Counted from the first letter of the stretch, positions 27,100 to 31,677 are shown. The stretch: DNA of 64,000 bases from the human T2T-CHM13v2.0 reference genome, Homo sapiens (GCA_009914755.4 CP068257.2:40576001-40640000); one strand, 5' to 3'. Notes: generated by a model from the sequence alone, not told the origin. Numbers and translations: made by a program.

Positions 27100-30000
27100 T
27101 CAGCCTGACCATACTGTAAAGAATAAAAAAGCATGTTTAGGAGATCAAGGGTGTAGCCAAACTAGCGTTTCAGGCAGAGATTAGCATGGACAGGCAGAAG
27201 CCAGGTGCTGTGCATGAAGACAGTGACGGCATAACCCTGAAGGTGTTTCAGAGGTTATTATTGCTGCCCTCCCATCACAGGCCCAGGGTGCCGAGGTCTG
27301 GGGGACAGAACTATGCCCACAGAGGTGCCTGGAGTGCCTGCAGGACCTCGGCACCTGCTGCAGTGTGTCTCCCTCAGAGGGCACAATCAATAAACCTTGG
27401 GCTTCTGTGCAGGGCCATCTCCATGGGTGTGTAGAGGGTAGGAGCTATGGAGGCATGGCTAACTCCATCTGGATTTCAGAGGATGCTTTGGAGAGCCTTG
27501 GGGTCCAGGCAGAGAACTGCCACAGGGGCAGAGCCACTGCAGAGAGCCCCCACCAGGACAATGCCCAGTGGAGGTGTGGGGGCAGGGCCACCTGAAGACC
27601 TCAGACTAGCAGAGCCACTGACGTGCACCTCCAGCCTGAGAGAGCCACAGGCAGGAGACTCCAGCCCATGAGAGCTGCAGTATGGGCTGTGCCCAGCAAA
27701 CCCATGTAGGAGGTGCCACCCAGAGCCCTGGGGGCCTAAGTCCCTCCTTAGAGTGTTCAGAAGGTGGGACCATGGAGTCAAAGAAGATATAATGCTTTTT
27801 GCCCTGTTGGGTTTTGGACTTACTTGAGACCTGTTATCGCTTTCTTCTTTTCTGTTTTTCTCTTTTTGGATGGAAGTGTCTGCCCTGTGCCTGCCCCATC
27901 CTTGCATTTTGGAAGCACATAACTTGTGTGACTTCACAAGTTCACCGCTGAAGGAATTTGCCCCAAGAGGACATTTACCTTGAGTCCCACTCACATCTGA
28001 TTTAAATTATGTGTAGCTGGGACTCTGGGCTTTAGACTTTTTATTTGGTGCCGGGAACAATTTAAGACTTTGGGCCCTATTGAGATGGAATGAACATATT
28101 TGGCATGTGAGAAGACTGAATTCTGGAGGGCCAGGGGTGGAATGCTATGGTCTGAATGTTGGGGTTCCCCCTAAATTTATTTGTTGGGACTTAATGCTCA
28201 GTGTGATTAATACTCTGATAGTACTAAGAGGTGTGGCCTCTGGAAGGTGATTAGTTCATGAAGACTTTGCCTCATGAATAGGGTGGAGCTCTCATAAGAC
28301 AGGTTGAAGGGCCCATCTCTTCCTCTTCCATCATGTGAGGACACAGAGGCGCCATCTATGAGGAACAGGCCCTCACCTGACACCAGAGATGCTGGAGTTT
28401 GACCTTGGACTTCCCAGCTTCCAGTGCTATGAACAATACCTTTCTGTAGTTTACAGATTTCCCAGTCTACGATATTTGTTACAGCAGCCAGAATAGACTA
28501 AGACACACGTACACTCCCTCCCTTGGTCAGAGAAGCCAACAGGGCCGGGGCCAGGCTGACCAGAAGGGAGATCTCCAGGCCCAGCCCAAGGCAAGCTCGC
28601 CACAGGGATGCGTCTCGAGCATGAGCACCTGCTGTGTTGTCCCGGCCTGGGATGACGAGGGCACGGTGTTCATCCCTGTCTCTCCCTCCCTCACATCACT
28701 CACCACTGTCAGACAGGAGAGCCACAAGCCCTCTTTCCTACTTACACTTGGGGCAGCATCTTCTGTTCTTAACTGGCTGGGAACTTTTATCTTCAGAGTC
28801 AGAGATCTGGGTTGTGAAAAGCAGGCAAGCAGACAAACATCTCTCTGCAGCCTTCTCCCCATTCTCCTACCCAGTTTCCAGAATTTGGGGGAAAAAAATC
28901 CCATAAGCTGTCATACTTCATATTGCCATCAGGCAGCAGTGGGAATGGTGCAGAGAGGAGCTGGGCAAAGGGGCAGAGGGACAGCTTTCTTTGTTTTTTT
29001 GTTTTCCTCCATGAAATGGGGAGGTGTCAAGTGAGCGAGATGTCCCCGGCCACACAGTGAAGCACAAGGCAGCCGAAGACACAGCAGGCAGGTCAGGTCT
29101 GTGTGCACATTGGCAGGCTGCATGCAGACCAGCCTCGGCCCAGGTGGAGAAGCAGAGGGATCTGCAGGGGAACCAGGGATTCAGAGACCTGTTGTTGGGG
29201 TCCTGCAGAAGATGGGGCAATTCAAGTCACCAAGCCAGTCTCACCCCAATGGCCTGGCTGGTTGCAGAAACTCACCAGGGACAAGGGGTCACCCCACCAC
29301 AGGCCCACCTGGACATGTGACTCCCCTGCACCCACCCTCACAAGCACCAAGGGCAGGATCCTCACGCCAGAGGCCAAGTCCTCAGTGTGCCCCTTTCTCC
29401 CCTTCATGTTCAGCCTCAGCAGCTGGAAGTCCACAGAAATAAATCAGACACTTCTAAAATGGGACACCATAGGGAAGGCCAGATGGAATAAGAGTTCTCT
29501 TCCCACAGACCTAGACTTCCATTGACTCCACTCGAAGTCAACTGGGTGATGCTGTTGGCTGCAAGTCAAGGCCAACATGGGCTGTGCTAATAGATGCAGA
29601 CCCTCTAGAGGGAAGGAGCACATCACCCTGGCCTGTTCTGTCCTGATCACACTGAATAGGTGTTCTTTGGTGGCCCTGAATTTCATGAGGGACACGAGGA
29701 ACTGGCACCCATCCCGAGAAGGGGAAAGTGGGACAAAAGGGCGTCTTCTAGGAAGCCACACTGGAGAGACTGGGGGCATCTGGTCCAGAGAACAAGGGTC
29801 TGGAAAGAATGTTGTTGCCATCATTGGCTGGCCAGGGCCTACTCTGGGGAGTGACTCCATGTTGCTATGGTGTGCAGAGCAGTCAGGGTGATAGGGAGTC
29901 CAATTGGACACAGGTTCAGTTTGCTAATGGTGACAACACTTAATAATGGAGTGGGTTGCCAGTTGAGGTAGTGATATAGTTTGGCTGTGTCCCCACCCAA

Positions 30001-30138
30001 ATCTCATCTTGAATTGTAGCTCCCATAATTCCCACATGTTGTAGGAAGGACCTGGTCAGAGATCACTGAATCATAGGGGCAGGTCTTTCCCATGCTATTC
30101 TCATGATAGTGAATAAGTCTCATGAGATCTGATGGCTT

Positions 30139-30144
30139 TATAAA
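30139..30144 (+). promoter_or_regulatory. LTR TATA box (TATAAA) about 70 bp upstream of the LTR-borne ATG
   Basis: ggctttataaaggggag. The position matches the TATA box of the THE1 LTR promoter as I remember it. Confidence 0.5.
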
Positions 30145-30213
30145 GGGGAGTTTCCCTGCACAAGCTCTCTCTCTTGTCTGCCGCCATGTGAGACATGCCT
30201 TTCACCTTCCGCC

Positions 30214-30246
30214 ATGATCATGAGGCTTCCCCAGCCACATGGAACT
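30214..30246 (+). CDS. ABCG1: Candidate LTR-derived alternative first coding exon of ABCG1. It encodes MIMRLPQPHGT and is followed by a GTGAGT donor.
   Basis: ATG ATC ATG AGG CTT CCC CAG CCA CAT GGA ACT | gtgagtcc. The 11 codons end in phase 0, which is compatible with the acceptor of the NASSYSAE exon at 39728. The peptide matches an alternative ABCG1 isoform N-terminus I recall, [20 protein letters not shown]…. Confidence 0.55.
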
Positions 30247-31677
30247 GTGAGTCCGTTAAATCTCTTTCCTTTGTAAATTGCCCAGTCTCAGGTATGTCTT
30301 TATCGGCAGCGTGAAAATGGACTAATACAGACAGGAAGTGGCTCCCCACTGGAAATTACCAGCTGTCAGCAATGCCTTAGCAGAAATTTCTGTTGGGGTT
30401 GGGACTAAGCTGGTCCTGTCGAGAGCTCCCCTTGCCTGGTTGATCCTCAGGGTTCTACTTAGAATGCCTCGAAAAGTCTTGGCTGGACACCCATGCCCAG
30501 TCTTTCTGCAGGGTCCCATTGGGGTTAACCTTCTCATTTCATCCCATGTGAACCAGGCCAGGCCCATCAGGGTTTGGCAACCCCCTGATGCAGTGGTTGC
30601 TGCCAGGTGACAGGAGCAAGCCTGCAGCTGCTGGGGGGCCATGCAGAGACAGCCTGCCAGAGGGGAGACCACCTGGGGAGGCCAGAGCCGTGGAGACAGC
30701 AAGAGACCAGGGGCTGAGGACAGAGTAGTACAGGTCTTTGGTCCCAGTAGTCCTGAAACCACTGCACTCCGAACCTTTCTGTACTTAGCTTAAGCCAGTT
30801 GGAGTTTCTGTCCTTTACAACCAAGAGCCTTGATAGGAATGGGGTCCTGTGCTACGCTACTGTTGGCTTCTTTCCCGATCGGGCGCTGGAGGGGAACACA
30901 GCAGTGACTACAGTGGGATGCTTACTCGGTGCTGGGCATGCTAGAAAGTGCTTGCCATGCCTTATTTCCCACGTGGTGGGGATTTTGACCCCACTGTACA
31001 GACAGATAAGTGAGGACCCTTTCACTTATCCTGCAACAGAAAATCCAGCAGCCAAAGCCAACAAGGGCCCAGCATAGCATCTTCCCTCTCTGACTTCATC
31101 CTCACGCTCCACACACCATCCCCCTGGCCATTCCCAGCAGCCCAGTAAGCACTGCCTCACACTTCCAGTTCCGGACCAGCCAGGATGGCCAGGCTGGATG
31201 GGGGCCATCCACCGGCTGAAGCCAATTGCCTATTCTCGAGCTGAAGGTGAATCAATCCCGCATAAATCTTCGGGCAGAGAACTGGGTGGGGGTAGAAGAG
31301 GGGGAATGTCTAGAAGGAAATTCTGGGCACATTCCTGGAAGTGAGGAGGATGGATATTGGACAGAAATTATGTCATTGCAGGCACCCTCACTTGCCCTGG
31401 CCACATGGACAGTTCCTCCCCGGCTGTGTTCCGTGCCTCCTCTCGTGCTCCAGGGCCTGTCTGTTCCTGGAGCGAGATGGGTCCCAGGGCTGGGCACCAG
31501 TCCCCATCTCCAGCCATCAGGCACTTTCCTCTCTGTGTTTTGGCGTAAACACTCCCTAGGTTTGTGGATCTGAATCCTCTTCCCAACACACTCAAGCTTT
31601 GCTGGCCTCCCTGCAGTGTATGTTTAAGGCACCACACAGCCTCCAAGGCCTGGCACCCGGGCAGTGGCACCTGGTAA

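What the first reader, a model, noticed from the sequence alone, without database searches (positions are those of the whole stretch)
29972..30252. A THE1 (MaLR) LTR 3 kb upstream of promoter B carries a ready-made alternative first exon for ABCG1 (TATA, ATG, MIMRLPQPHGT, GTGAGT donor)
The solo THE1 LTR at 29972..30329 contains a TATAAA box at 30139. Downstream is the ORF ATG ATC ATG AGG CTT CCC CAG CCA CAT GGA ACT (30214..30246), immediately followed by a consensus GTGAGT donor. The 33-nt coding segment ends in phase 0, exactly as the canonical first exon (MACLMAAFSVGTAM|GTGAGT) does. Splicing to the NASSYSAE exon at 39728 would therefore give [25 protein letters not shown]…. I recall MIMRLPQPHGT as the N-terminus of a described alternative ABCG1 isoform, which makes this an apparent case of LTR exaptation. 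THE1 LTRs are established alternative promoters elsewhere, for example THE1B driving CSF1R. Here the LTR would supply the promoter, the start codon and the splice donor of a lipid-transporter isoform. Its regulation would be expected to differ from the LXR/Sp1-driven promoter B.
Basis: partly seen in the sequence, partly recalled or inferred. Interest (0 to 1): 0.7.

Follow-up and report, generated by a model that had tools for sequence, protein, structure and literature searches.

The report
Known LTR-derived first exon of ABCG1

Summary
These are TATAAA at 30139, ATG at 30214, the 33-nt ORF MIMRLPQPHGT, and the GTGAGT donor at 30247, in phase 0 with the NASSYSAE exon at 39728.

The predicted 663-aa protein exists exactly as NP_997512.1 (ABCG1 isoform 7), which is UniProt P45844 isoform 5 and AAK28835.1.

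A supplementary table in Piriyapongsa et al. 2007 lists NM_207629 exon 1 of 15 as lying wholly inside a sense-strand THE1B (MaLR) LTR. Its coordinates map to window 30135..30246, so the exon ends exactly at the predicted donor.

The ATG, ORF, donor and TATA are inherited from the repeat family. Among 57 distinct copies recovered from unrelated contigs, 44% keep ORF plus donor and 28% also keep the TATA.

Three caveats apply:
- The annotated 5' end (30135) lies 4 nt upstream of the TATA box, so that box does not position the cDNA start. Promoter activity of the LTR is inferred, not shown.
- Two upstream AUGs precede the annotated start codon, so translation of the LTR peptide is unproven.
- Nothing shows selection or a distinct function.

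Verdict: observation confirmed, interpretation essentially right, already known. Interest is low.

The parts
29972..30329 (+). Solo THE1B (ERVL-MaLR) LTR, 358 bp, TG...CA termini, same orientation as ABCG1
   Evidence: full-length matches to two other copies in the window; 89% identity to an empirical consensus built from 60 copies; a published row names it THE1B/MaLR, with an LRTS length of 358 that equals this unit. No partner LTR lies within 12 kb.
30135..30246 (+). Annotated exon 1 (of 15) of ABCG1 transcript variant 7, NM_207629: 79 nt of 5'UTR plus 33 nt of CDS
   Evidence: exon chr21:42509255-42509367 lies inside LRTS 42509092-42509450, orientation +/+, codes F and 2B; an offset of 42479121 maps the LTR to 29972-30329 and the exon to 30135-30246.
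30139..30144 (+). TATAAA, the family's ancestral TATA box; it lies inside the annotated exon, 4 nt after its 5' end
   Evidence: TATAAR is present in 35/57 family copies.
30146..30155 (+). GGGAGTTTCC, a match to the NF-kB consensus GGGRNWYYCC (motif match only)
   Evidence: NF-kB, Sp1 and AP-1 sites drive the THE1B LTR at CSF1R according to PMC5134097. Binding at this copy was not tested.
30186..30191 (+). Upstream AUG followed directly by a stop (ATG TGA), context gccgccATGt
   Evidence: A start-stop at this position is ancestral (35/57 copies).
30195..30246 (+). Second upstream AUG opening an out-of-frame 17-codon uORF. It overlaps the annotated start codon, and its TAA stop is created by the splice junction (T|AA).
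   Evidence: An ATG at this position occurs in only 15/57 family copies.
30214..30246 (+). Annotated coding segment MIMRLPQPHGT (11 codons, ends in phase 0)
   Evidence: The exact full-length product is in public databases. The family consensus peptide is MIVRPPQPCGT.
30247..30252 (+). GTGAGT splice donor, the ancestral MaLR LTR donor
   Evidence: GTRAGT is present in 41/57 copies. The annotated exon end falls exactly here.
30255..30260 (+). Degenerate LTR polyadenylation signal: GTTAAA here, ATTAAA in the family
   Evidence: ATTAAA in 40/60 copies and GTTAAA in 2/60. The change here is A>G at 30255.
39728..39973 (+). Common ABCG1 coding exon ([14 protein letters not shown]...WWRKK) that receives the LTR exon in phase 0; the acceptor AG is at 39726-39727
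   Evidence: The acceptor scores in the 99.3rd percentile of AGs in the window by a crude PWM.
33320..33361 (+). Coding part of the canonical first exon (MACLMAAFSVGTAM), inside the CpG island of promoter B; included for comparison
   Evidence: CpG island at about 32800-34200.

Best explanation
Window 29972-30329 is a solo THE1B (ERVL-MaLR) LTR. It sits in the same orientation as ABCG1, 3 kb upstream of the CpG-island promoter that drives the MACLMAAF... transcripts.

The 3' part of the LTR (30135-30246) is the annotated first exon of a curated minor ABCG1 mRNA, NM_207629 (variant 7). The LTR contributes 79 nt of 5'UTR, the annotated AUG, 11 codons (MIMRLPQPHGT) and the GTGAGT donor. The donor splices in phase 0 to the common exon at 39728 and gives the 663-aa isoform 7 (UniProt P45844-5).

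These signals were not assembled by later mutation. They are the standard TATA / AUG / short ORF / donor module of THE1 LTRs, of the kind described for MaLR LTRs generally. The copy landed in sense orientation upstream of a phase-0 acceptor.

Shown: the anatomy, the identity with the database isoform, the LTR origin of exon 1, and the family inheritance of the signals.

Inferred: that transcription actually initiates in the LTR, and which elements drive it. The annotated 5' end lies upstream of the TATA box, so initiation at that end would depend on U3 sequence at 29972-30134 rather than on that box. Whether the 11-residue peptide is translated is also inferred, and no functional difference of the isoform has been shown.
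For: -: sequence features at the stated coordinates.
- the recalled ABCG1 sequence matches PDB 7R8C (666 aa) exactly and PDB 7FDV (678 aa) except for the construct's E-to-Q change (printed at residue 242).
- the exact 663-aa MIMRLPQPHGT isoform is NP_997512.1, UniProt isoform 5 and AAK28835.1.
- Piriyapongsa 2007 Additional file 2 lists NM_207629 exon 1/15, THE1B, MaLR, +/+, F, 2B.
- the coordinate mapping puts the exon end at 30246.
- the signals are ancestral in the family.
- (PMC5538554): ERVL/MaLR LTRs carry a promoter, TSS and poly(A) site, and may carry a donor and an AUG, but no acceptor.
- only weak acceptor candidates lie in or near the LTR.
- (PMC5134097): a THE1B LTR initiates and splices CSF1R transcripts.
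- an orangutan entry (PNJ42431.1) has the identical 11-residue N-terminus.
Against: - The annotated 5' end (30135) lies 4 nt upstream of the TATA box. Either initiation does not use that box or the cDNA is 5'-incomplete.
- No CAGE, RACE or RNA-seq data could be consulted.
- Two upstream AUGs precede the annotated start: a start-stop in a good context, and an overlapping uORF.
- The +12 (675-aa) form of this N-terminus is not in the protein collection.
- The database names and accessions returned for the human isoform list one cDNA-derived GenBank protein (AAK28835.1). The others are RefSeq and UniProt derivatives and genome-annotation entries.
- No ABCG1 paper in the searchable library mentions the LTR.
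Confidence: 0.72

Rival explanations
1. The LTR segment is an exonised piece of an intron rather than a true first exon. Under this reading, transcription starts further upstream, either at ABCG1 promoter A or as read-through. The cloned cDNA is 5'-incomplete, and the LTR contributes only the donor and the AUG.
For: The annotated 5' end at 30135 lies upstream of the TATA box, which is not where a TATA-directed start would fall. The literature describes multiple ABCG1 transcripts arising from different initiation sites and from alternative splicing (PMC5618541). A copy-specific AG at 30043-44 (3/60 copies) and the ancestral AG at 30018-19 give possible, though weak, acceptors.
Against: The published table gives exon 1 of 15. 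MaLR LTRs are described as lacking acceptors. The best acceptor candidates score at or below the 92nd percentile of all AGs in the window, against the 99.3rd percentile for the real acceptor at 39728.
Confidence: 0.18
2. The transcript is real but is neutral by-product expression, and the LTR peptide is seldom or never made. Under this reading, ribosomes are captured by the two upstream AUGs. Any protein made would start at the next in-frame AUG (MTEPKS, 39752), so nothing isoform-specific would be produced and 'exaptation' would be a misnomer.
For: The upstream AUG at 30186 sits in the context gccgccATGt and is a start-stop. The uORF from 30195 overlaps the annotated AUG and ends at the splice junction, which leaves 39752 as a possible reinitiation site. 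Proteins annotated as starting at MTEPKS exist in other mammals. About 44% of family copies carry the same ORF-plus-donor module, so its presence needs no selection. The peptide differs from the family consensus at 3 of 11 residues with no sign of constraint.
Against: The 11-residue peptide is identical in an orangutan annotation entry, although that is expected by descent over this time span. The annotated AUG has a purine at -3. RefSeq and UniProt curators kept the isoform.
Confidence: 0.45
3. The LTR matters mainly as an inducible enhancer for the nearby ABCG1 promoters, not as a promoter or first exon.
For: Chen et al. (bioRxiv 10.1101/2022.05.10.491101) list a THE1-ABCG1 pair among TE instances that gain chromatin accessibility after influenza infection of macrophages. 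The main text says THE1C and the supplement legend says THE1B. The LTR carries an NF-kB-like motif.
Against: The paper gives no coordinates in the text held, so the instance may be a different copy; a second sense-strand THE1-like LTR lies at 65-402, for example. Open chromatin is equally expected at an active promoter. The RefSeq first exon shows that the LTR is transcribed and spliced.
Confidence: 0.1

Closest known systems
ABCG1 transcript variant 7 (NM_207629) / isoform 7 (NP_997512.1) / UniProt P45844 isoform 5; exon 1 listed as THE1B-derived in Piriyapongsa et al. 2007, BMC Genomics 8:291, Additional file 2
   Same: This is the same object. The protein sequence is identical, the LTR length is the same, and the exon end coincides with the predicted donor.
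   Different: Nothing differs. This analysis adds three points: the TATA box lies inside the annotated exon, two upstream AUGs precede the start codon, and the module is inherited from the family consensus.
THE1B LTR-driven CSF1R transcript in Hodgkin lymphoma (Lamprecht et al. 2010, as reviewed in PMC5134097)
   Same: A solo THE1B LTR in sense orientation, kilobases upstream of the normal promoter, initiates transcription and uses the LTR's own splice donor.
   Different: At CSF1R the LTR adds only 5'UTR and the normal protein is made, and promoter activity was shown by 5' RACE and reporter assays. At ABCG1 the LTR AUG is annotated as the start and gives a chimeric N-terminus, and promoter activity has not been shown in anything I could consult.
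MaLR/ERVL 'plug-and-play' promoter plus first-exon platforms (MT, ORR1, MLT; Franke et al. 2017, PMC5538554; Peaston et al. 2004)
   Same: The LTR provides the promoter/TSS, a complete 5' exon, a donor near the 3' end of the LTR and sometimes a functional AUG, with no acceptor.
   Different: Those cases were defined in oocytes and zygotes, mostly in rodents. The tissue in which the ABCG1 LTR exon is used is unknown here.
MSTB2 (MaLR) exonisation in IL22RA2 (Piriyapongsa et al. 2007)
   Same: A primate MaLR LTR in sense orientation adds in-frame coding sequence to an alternative isoform.
   Different: The IL22RA2 case is an internal cassette exon that required a new splice site created by mutation. 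The ABCG1 case is a first exon that uses the ancestral donor.

Membership tests
THE1 (ERVL-MaLR) solo LTR | Unit of about 350-370 bp bounded by TG...CA | tested here: met
   The unit 29972-30329 is 358 bp, from TGATAT... to ...AATACA. Other copies align end to end with it.
THE1 (ERVL-MaLR) solo LTR | Dispersed, high-copy repeat with the same boundaries at unrelated loci | tested here: met
   Two more copies lie in the window. A 30-mer seed hit at least 120 contigs, and 57 distinct full-length copies were aligned.
THE1 (ERVL-MaLR) solo LTR | Sequence similarity to the THE1B consensus / RepeatMasker call | tested here: met
   The LTR is 89% identical to an empirical family consensus and 85% identical to a THE1B consensus recalled from memory, which is a lead only. 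A published RepeatMasker-based table names this interval THE1B, MaLR. The subfamily was not re-derived here because no Repbase or Dfam library was available.
THE1 (ERVL-MaLR) solo LTR | Internal LTR signals: a TATA box and a downstream poly(A) signal | tested here: met
   TATAAA lies at 30139. The poly(A) signal position is recognisable but mutated, GTTAAA here against the family ATTAAA.
THE1 (ERVL-MaLR) solo LTR | 5-bp target-site duplication | tested here: inconclusive
   The flanks are GGTAG and GACAG, a 3/5 match. This is compatible with decay at about 12% divergence but is not diagnostic.
THE1 (ERVL-MaLR) solo LTR | Solo: no partner LTR or internal region adjacent | tested here: met
   The nearest related copies are 11.4 kb and 29.6 kb away and are only 70-82% identical. 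The internal THE1 sequence itself was not searched for.
LTR-derived alternative promoter / first exon | A transcript whose first exon lies entirely within a sense-oriented LTR and ends at the LTR's own donor | tested here: met
   The table row reads NM_207629 exon 1/15, F (fully covered), +/+. The exon end maps to 30246, immediately before GTGAGT.
LTR-derived alternative promoter / first exon | Transcription start inside the LTR, positioned by the LTR core promoter (TATA about 25-30 nt upstream) | tested here: not met
   The annotated 5' end at 30135 is inside the LTR but 4 nt upstream of the TATAAA. The start is in the LTR, but the TATA relationship fails for this cDNA end.
LTR-derived alternative promoter / first exon | Demonstrated promoter activity (capped 5' ends, reporter assay, or loss on deletion) | not testable with these tools
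   No CAGE, RNA-seq or cDNA collection was available. The only related hint is the THE1-ABCG1 accessible-chromatin pair, for which no coordinates are given.
LTR-derived alternative promoter / first exon | Use of the LTR-borne AUG, giving a chimeric protein | not testable with these tools
   The chimeric protein is annotated in RefSeq and UniProt. Two upstream AUGs argue for inefficient use. No proteomic or ribosome-profiling data were available.
ABCG1 isoform 7 (NP_997512.1) | Exact amino-acid sequence of the conceptual splice product | tested here: met
   The 663-aa sequence built from the window's LTR ORF plus ABCG1 residues 15-666 was found by exact look-up. The ABCG1 backbone was verified against PDB 7R8C and 7FDV.

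The most novel reading that the evidence does not exclude
The THE1B LTR may be a primate-specific, inflammation- or infection-responsive promoter of NF-kB type, giving macrophages an LXR-independent route to ABCG1 expression. On this reading, the THE1-ABCG1 instance that opens after influenza infection in Chen et al. is this LTR. The mutated LTR poly(A) signal (GTTAAA) would then favour splicing into ABCG1 over premature termination.
Probability: 0.12. Interest if true: 0.5.

Novelty: already known. Interest (0 to 1): 0.2.

Why it matters
ABCG1 is a major macrophage cholesterol exporter, and its regulation is usually described through LXR acting on two promoters. A third, LTR-borne start site restricted to anthropoid primates would be one more human-mouse difference at this locus, alongside the +12/-12 isoforms noted in PMC5618541.

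It could link ABCG1 expression to signals that de-repress THE1 LTRs, such as NF-kB activity, hypomethylation and infection. However, the transcript has been in RefSeq for about two decades, and its LTR origin was tabulated in 2007. Nothing found here shows that the isoform is abundant, translated or functionally distinct.

Tried and rejected
1. Full-text search for the peptide MIMRLPQPHGT found 0 papers.
2. A search of the large protein database with the 92-aa N-terminal fragment returned only short fragments, none carrying the LTR peptide. I switched to exact look-ups of full-length constructs, which worked.
3. I tried to read the primary ABCG1 gene-structure papers (PMID 11500512 and 11162488). 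Neither is held.
4. Searches for ABCG1 together with LTR, alternative promoter or long terminal repeat found 0 papers. Searches on gene structure gave nothing specific.
5. From memory I initially expected NM_207629 to start at the far-upstream promoter A, with the LTR segment as an internal exon. The published table (exon 1/15) contradicts that, and I dropped it to a minor rival.
6. The look-up of encoding contigs for the human and orangutan isoforms returned nothing, because only the longest product per gene is indexed.
7. Exact look-ups of guessed macaque, baboon/snub-nosed monkey and marmoset versions with the human peptide were not found. This is uninformative, because the peptide may differ in those species or the isoform may not be annotated.
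8. Supplements of three other papers on transposable-element start sites or chimeric transcripts are not held.
9. One count (AG at '30040') used wrong coordinates. It was redone, where the AG is at 30043-44.
10. A DR4/LXRE scan found no LXR-type element in the LTR.
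Full report
**Observation.**
- TATAAA lies at 30139-30144.
- The ORF ATG ATC ATG AGG CTT CCC CAG CCA CAT GGA ACT lies at 30214-30246 and translates to MIMRLPQPHGT.
- GTGAGT lies at 30247-30252.
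- The canonical first coding segment MACLMAAFSVGTAM lies at 33320-33361 and is followed by GTGAGT.
- The common exon beginning [14 protein letters not shown] starts at 39728, behind a strong polypyrimidine/AG acceptor.

Both alternative first coding segments end in phase 0, so joining 30246 to 39728 is in frame. A third alternative N-terminal segment, MRISLPRAPERDGGVSASSLLDTVT, lies at 34029-34103.

**The repeat.** The interval 29972-30329 is 358 bp and has TG...CA ends.
- It aligns end to end with two other copies in the window, at 65-402 on the + strand (82% identity) and at 41718-42097 on the - strand (70% identity).
- A 30-mer from its 5' end, chosen away from the features in question, found at least 120 unrelated contigs in the metagenome collection. 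These are presumably primate host DNA, though their origin was not checked.
- From those contigs I extracted 60 non-identical full-length copies, which reduce to 57 loci at 97% identity.
- The ABCG1 copy is 89% identical to their majority consensus, a Jukes-Cantor distance of 0.118. This is in line with the published statement that THE1B LTRs are shared by Old and New World primates (PMC5134097).
- A published RepeatMasker-based table names this very interval THE1B, MaLR.
- The 5-bp target-site duplication is not convincing (GGTAG against GACAG).

**Are the signals special?** They are not. The family consensus reads ATGATTGTGAGGCCTCCCCAGCCATGTGGAACT|GTGAGT, peptide MIVRPPQPCGT. A TATAAA lies about 75 nt upstream of the ATG and an ATTAAA poly(A) signal lies just after the donor. 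The counts among the 57 distinct copies are:

| Feature kept | Copies (of 57) |
|---|---|
| ATG | 40 |
| Open phase-0 ORF | 34 |
| GTRAGT donor | 41 |
| ORF plus donor | 25 |
| ORF plus donor plus TATAAR | 16 |

Even the second copy in this window (65-402) keeps an ATG, a 27-nt phase-0 ORF and a GTAAGT donor. With more than 37,000 THE1 LTR loci in the genome (PMC5134097), the 'ready-made first exon' is a property of the family. This fits the description of MaLR/ERVL LTRs as carrying a promoter, TSS, poly(A) site, often a donor and sometimes an AUG, but no acceptor (PMC5538554). What is particular to this copy is its position and orientation upstream of a phase-0 acceptor in a gene.

**Is the isoform real and does it map here?** I first verified the human ABCG1 sequence against PDB entries. 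It matches 7R8C (666 aa, 'Isoform 4') exactly, and it matches 7FDV (678 aa) except for that construct's E-to-Q substitution at residue 242. I then built the conceptual product and looked it up by exact sequence.
- The 663-aa protein MIMRLPQPHGT + residues 15-666 is in the collection as NP_997512.1 (ABCG1 isoform 7, Homo sapiens), as UniProt 'Isoform 5 of ATP-binding cassette sub-family G member 1', and as AAK28835.1.
- The 675-aa version, which carries the 12-residue insert, is absent from the collection.
- Additional file 2 of Piriyapongsa et al. 2007 (BMC Genomics 8:291, PMC2008291) contains this row: NM_207629, exon 1/15, chr21, exon 42509255-42509367, LRTS 42509092-42509450, +/+, THE1B, MaLR, F, 2B.
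- By the file's own legend, F means the LTR covers the whole exon, and 2B means a first CDS exon with both 5'UTR and coding sequence.
- The LRTS length (358) equals the window LTR. With the resulting offset, the LTR maps to 29972-30329 and the exon to 30135-30246.
- The annotated exon therefore ends exactly at the predicted donor.

The isoform exists, it maps here, and the LTR-derived segment is annotated as the first exon.

**What is not settled: the promoter.** The annotated 5' end (30135) lies 4 nt upstream of the TATAAA at 30139. That box therefore sits inside the exon and cannot have positioned that cDNA end. Three readings are possible:
- initiation in this copy is TATA-independent and uses U3 sequence at 29972-30134;
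- start sites are dispersed;
- the cDNA is 5'-incomplete or primer-defined.

The alternative that the segment is an internal exon fed from an upstream promoter is disfavoured. The table says exon 1 of 15, and MaLR LTRs are described as having no acceptor. By a crude weight matrix, the best AGs in or near the LTR reach only the 92nd percentile of the window's AGs, against the 99.3rd for the true acceptor at 39728. I could consult no CAGE, RACE or RNA-seq data, so promoter activity remains an inference.

The LTR lies in CpG-poor DNA (observed/expected about 0.24), unlike the CpG island of promoter B at about 32800-34200. It contains no DR4 LXR element. It has a GGGAGTTTCC match to the NF-kB consensus next to the TATA box. 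NF-kB, Sp1 and AP-1 sites were shown to drive the THE1B LTR at CSF1R.

One preprint lists a THE1-ABCG1 pair among transposable-element instances that gain accessibility in influenza-infected macrophages. The main text says THE1C and the supplement legend says THE1B. The text held gives no coordinates, so I cannot say that it is this copy.

**What is not settled: translation and function.** In the spliced mRNA the annotated AUG is the third AUG.
- The first AUG (30186, context gccgccAUGu) is followed at once by UGA. This start-stop is ancestral in the family.
- The second AUG (30195) is present in only 15 of 57 copies. It opens a 17-codon out-of-frame uORF that overlaps the annotated AUG. Its UAA stop is created by the splice junction itself.
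- The next in-frame AUG after the annotated one (apart from 30220, two codons downstream within the LTR segment) is the MTEPKS methionine at 39752. Some annotated mammalian ABCG1 proteins start there.

Much of the translation from this mRNA may therefore bypass the LTR peptide.

The peptide differs from the family consensus at three of eleven positions, with no sign of constraint. An orangutan annotation entry (PNJ42431.1, 'ABCG1 isoform 3') has the identical eleven residues joined to the orangutan protein. The entry implies that the orangutan genome encodes the same eleven residues upstream of its ABCG1 exons, and nothing in the look-up bears on whether the exon is used.

One copy-specific change may matter mechanistically. 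The LTR poly(A) signal ATTAAA, 8 nt after the donor, is GTTAAA here (2 of 60 copies share this). That change would remove competition from premature polyadenylation. This is inference only.

**Comparison with known cases.** This is the same object as RefSeq NM_207629 exon 1. It works like the THE1B-CSF1R transcript and like the MaLR 'promoter plus first exon' platforms of oocytes. The difference is that here the LTR AUG is annotated as the start codon, so the product is a chimeric N-terminus.

**Novelty and score.** The isoform has been in databases since the early 2000s, a dating I infer from the accession series and my own knowledge. The LTR origin of its first exon was tabulated in 2007. 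In the searchable library no paper discusses it in its text, so it is little known in the ABCG1 field, but it is not new. I rate it 'already known', with interest 0.2.

The most novel reading left open is that this LTR is an infection- or NF-kB-responsive, primate-specific ABCG1 promoter in macrophages. I give that about 0.12 probability. It would be moderately interesting if true.

Noticed in passing
window 65-402 (+): A second THE1-like LTR lies in the same orientation (82% identical to the ABCG1 exon LTR). It also keeps an ATG (293), a 27-nt phase-0 ORF (MIVRPSQPY) and a GTAAGT donor, but its TATA position reads TAAAAA. It shows how common the 'ready-made exon' is.
   Followed up: partly
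window 41718-42097 (-): An older, antisense MaLR LTR (70% identical, with insertions relative to THE1) lies in the intron downstream of the NASSY exon.
   Followed up: no
window 40397-40412 (-) and 61097-61112 (-): A perfect DR4 (AGGTCAGTCTAGGTCA) lies about 420 bp downstream of the NASSY exon. A second DR4-like site (AGTTTATAATAGTTCA) lies deeper in the intron. Both are candidates for the intronic LXR response elements reported for human ABCG1; this identification is from memory and was not checked against the literature.
   Followed up: no
window about 32800-34200 and about 48600-49400: Two CpG islands. The first covers the MACL and MRISL first exons (promoter B). The second is intronic and unexplained. 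No CpG island was detected at the LTR or anywhere upstream of position 32800 in the window.
   Followed up: no
window 30289-30297: A second donor-like site inside the LTR, CAG|GTATGT at 30292, scores higher than the used donor by a crude matrix. Its use would include an in-frame stop (…GTVSPLNLFPL*). The CAG form occurs in 17/60 family copies.
   Followed up: partly
window 30246/39728 junction: The stop codon of the 30195 uORF (TAA) exists only in the spliced RNA. It is formed by T from the LTR exon and AA from the NASSY exon.
   Followed up: yes
window 34029-34103 (+): The alternative N-terminal coding segment MRISLPRAPERDGGVSASSLLDTVT lies only about 670 bp downstream of the MACL segment, in the same CpG island. 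It is followed by ACT|GTAAGT and matches the N-terminus of the orangutan 689-aa isoform X1.
   Followed up: partly
bioRxiv 10.1101/2022.05.10.491101: The main text names the pair 'THE1C-ABCG1', but the supplementary legend for the same figure names it 'THE1B-ABCG1'. The subfamily of the accessible instance is therefore ambiguous in the source.
   Followed up: partly
window 11937, 19432, 25713, 54732: Repeated GGATCACCTGAGGTCA / AGATCACCTGAGGTCA matches turned up in the DR4 scan. The repeated, near-identical sequence suggests copies of a dispersed repeat, possibly Alu elements (from memory, not tested), rather than receptor sites.
   Followed up: no
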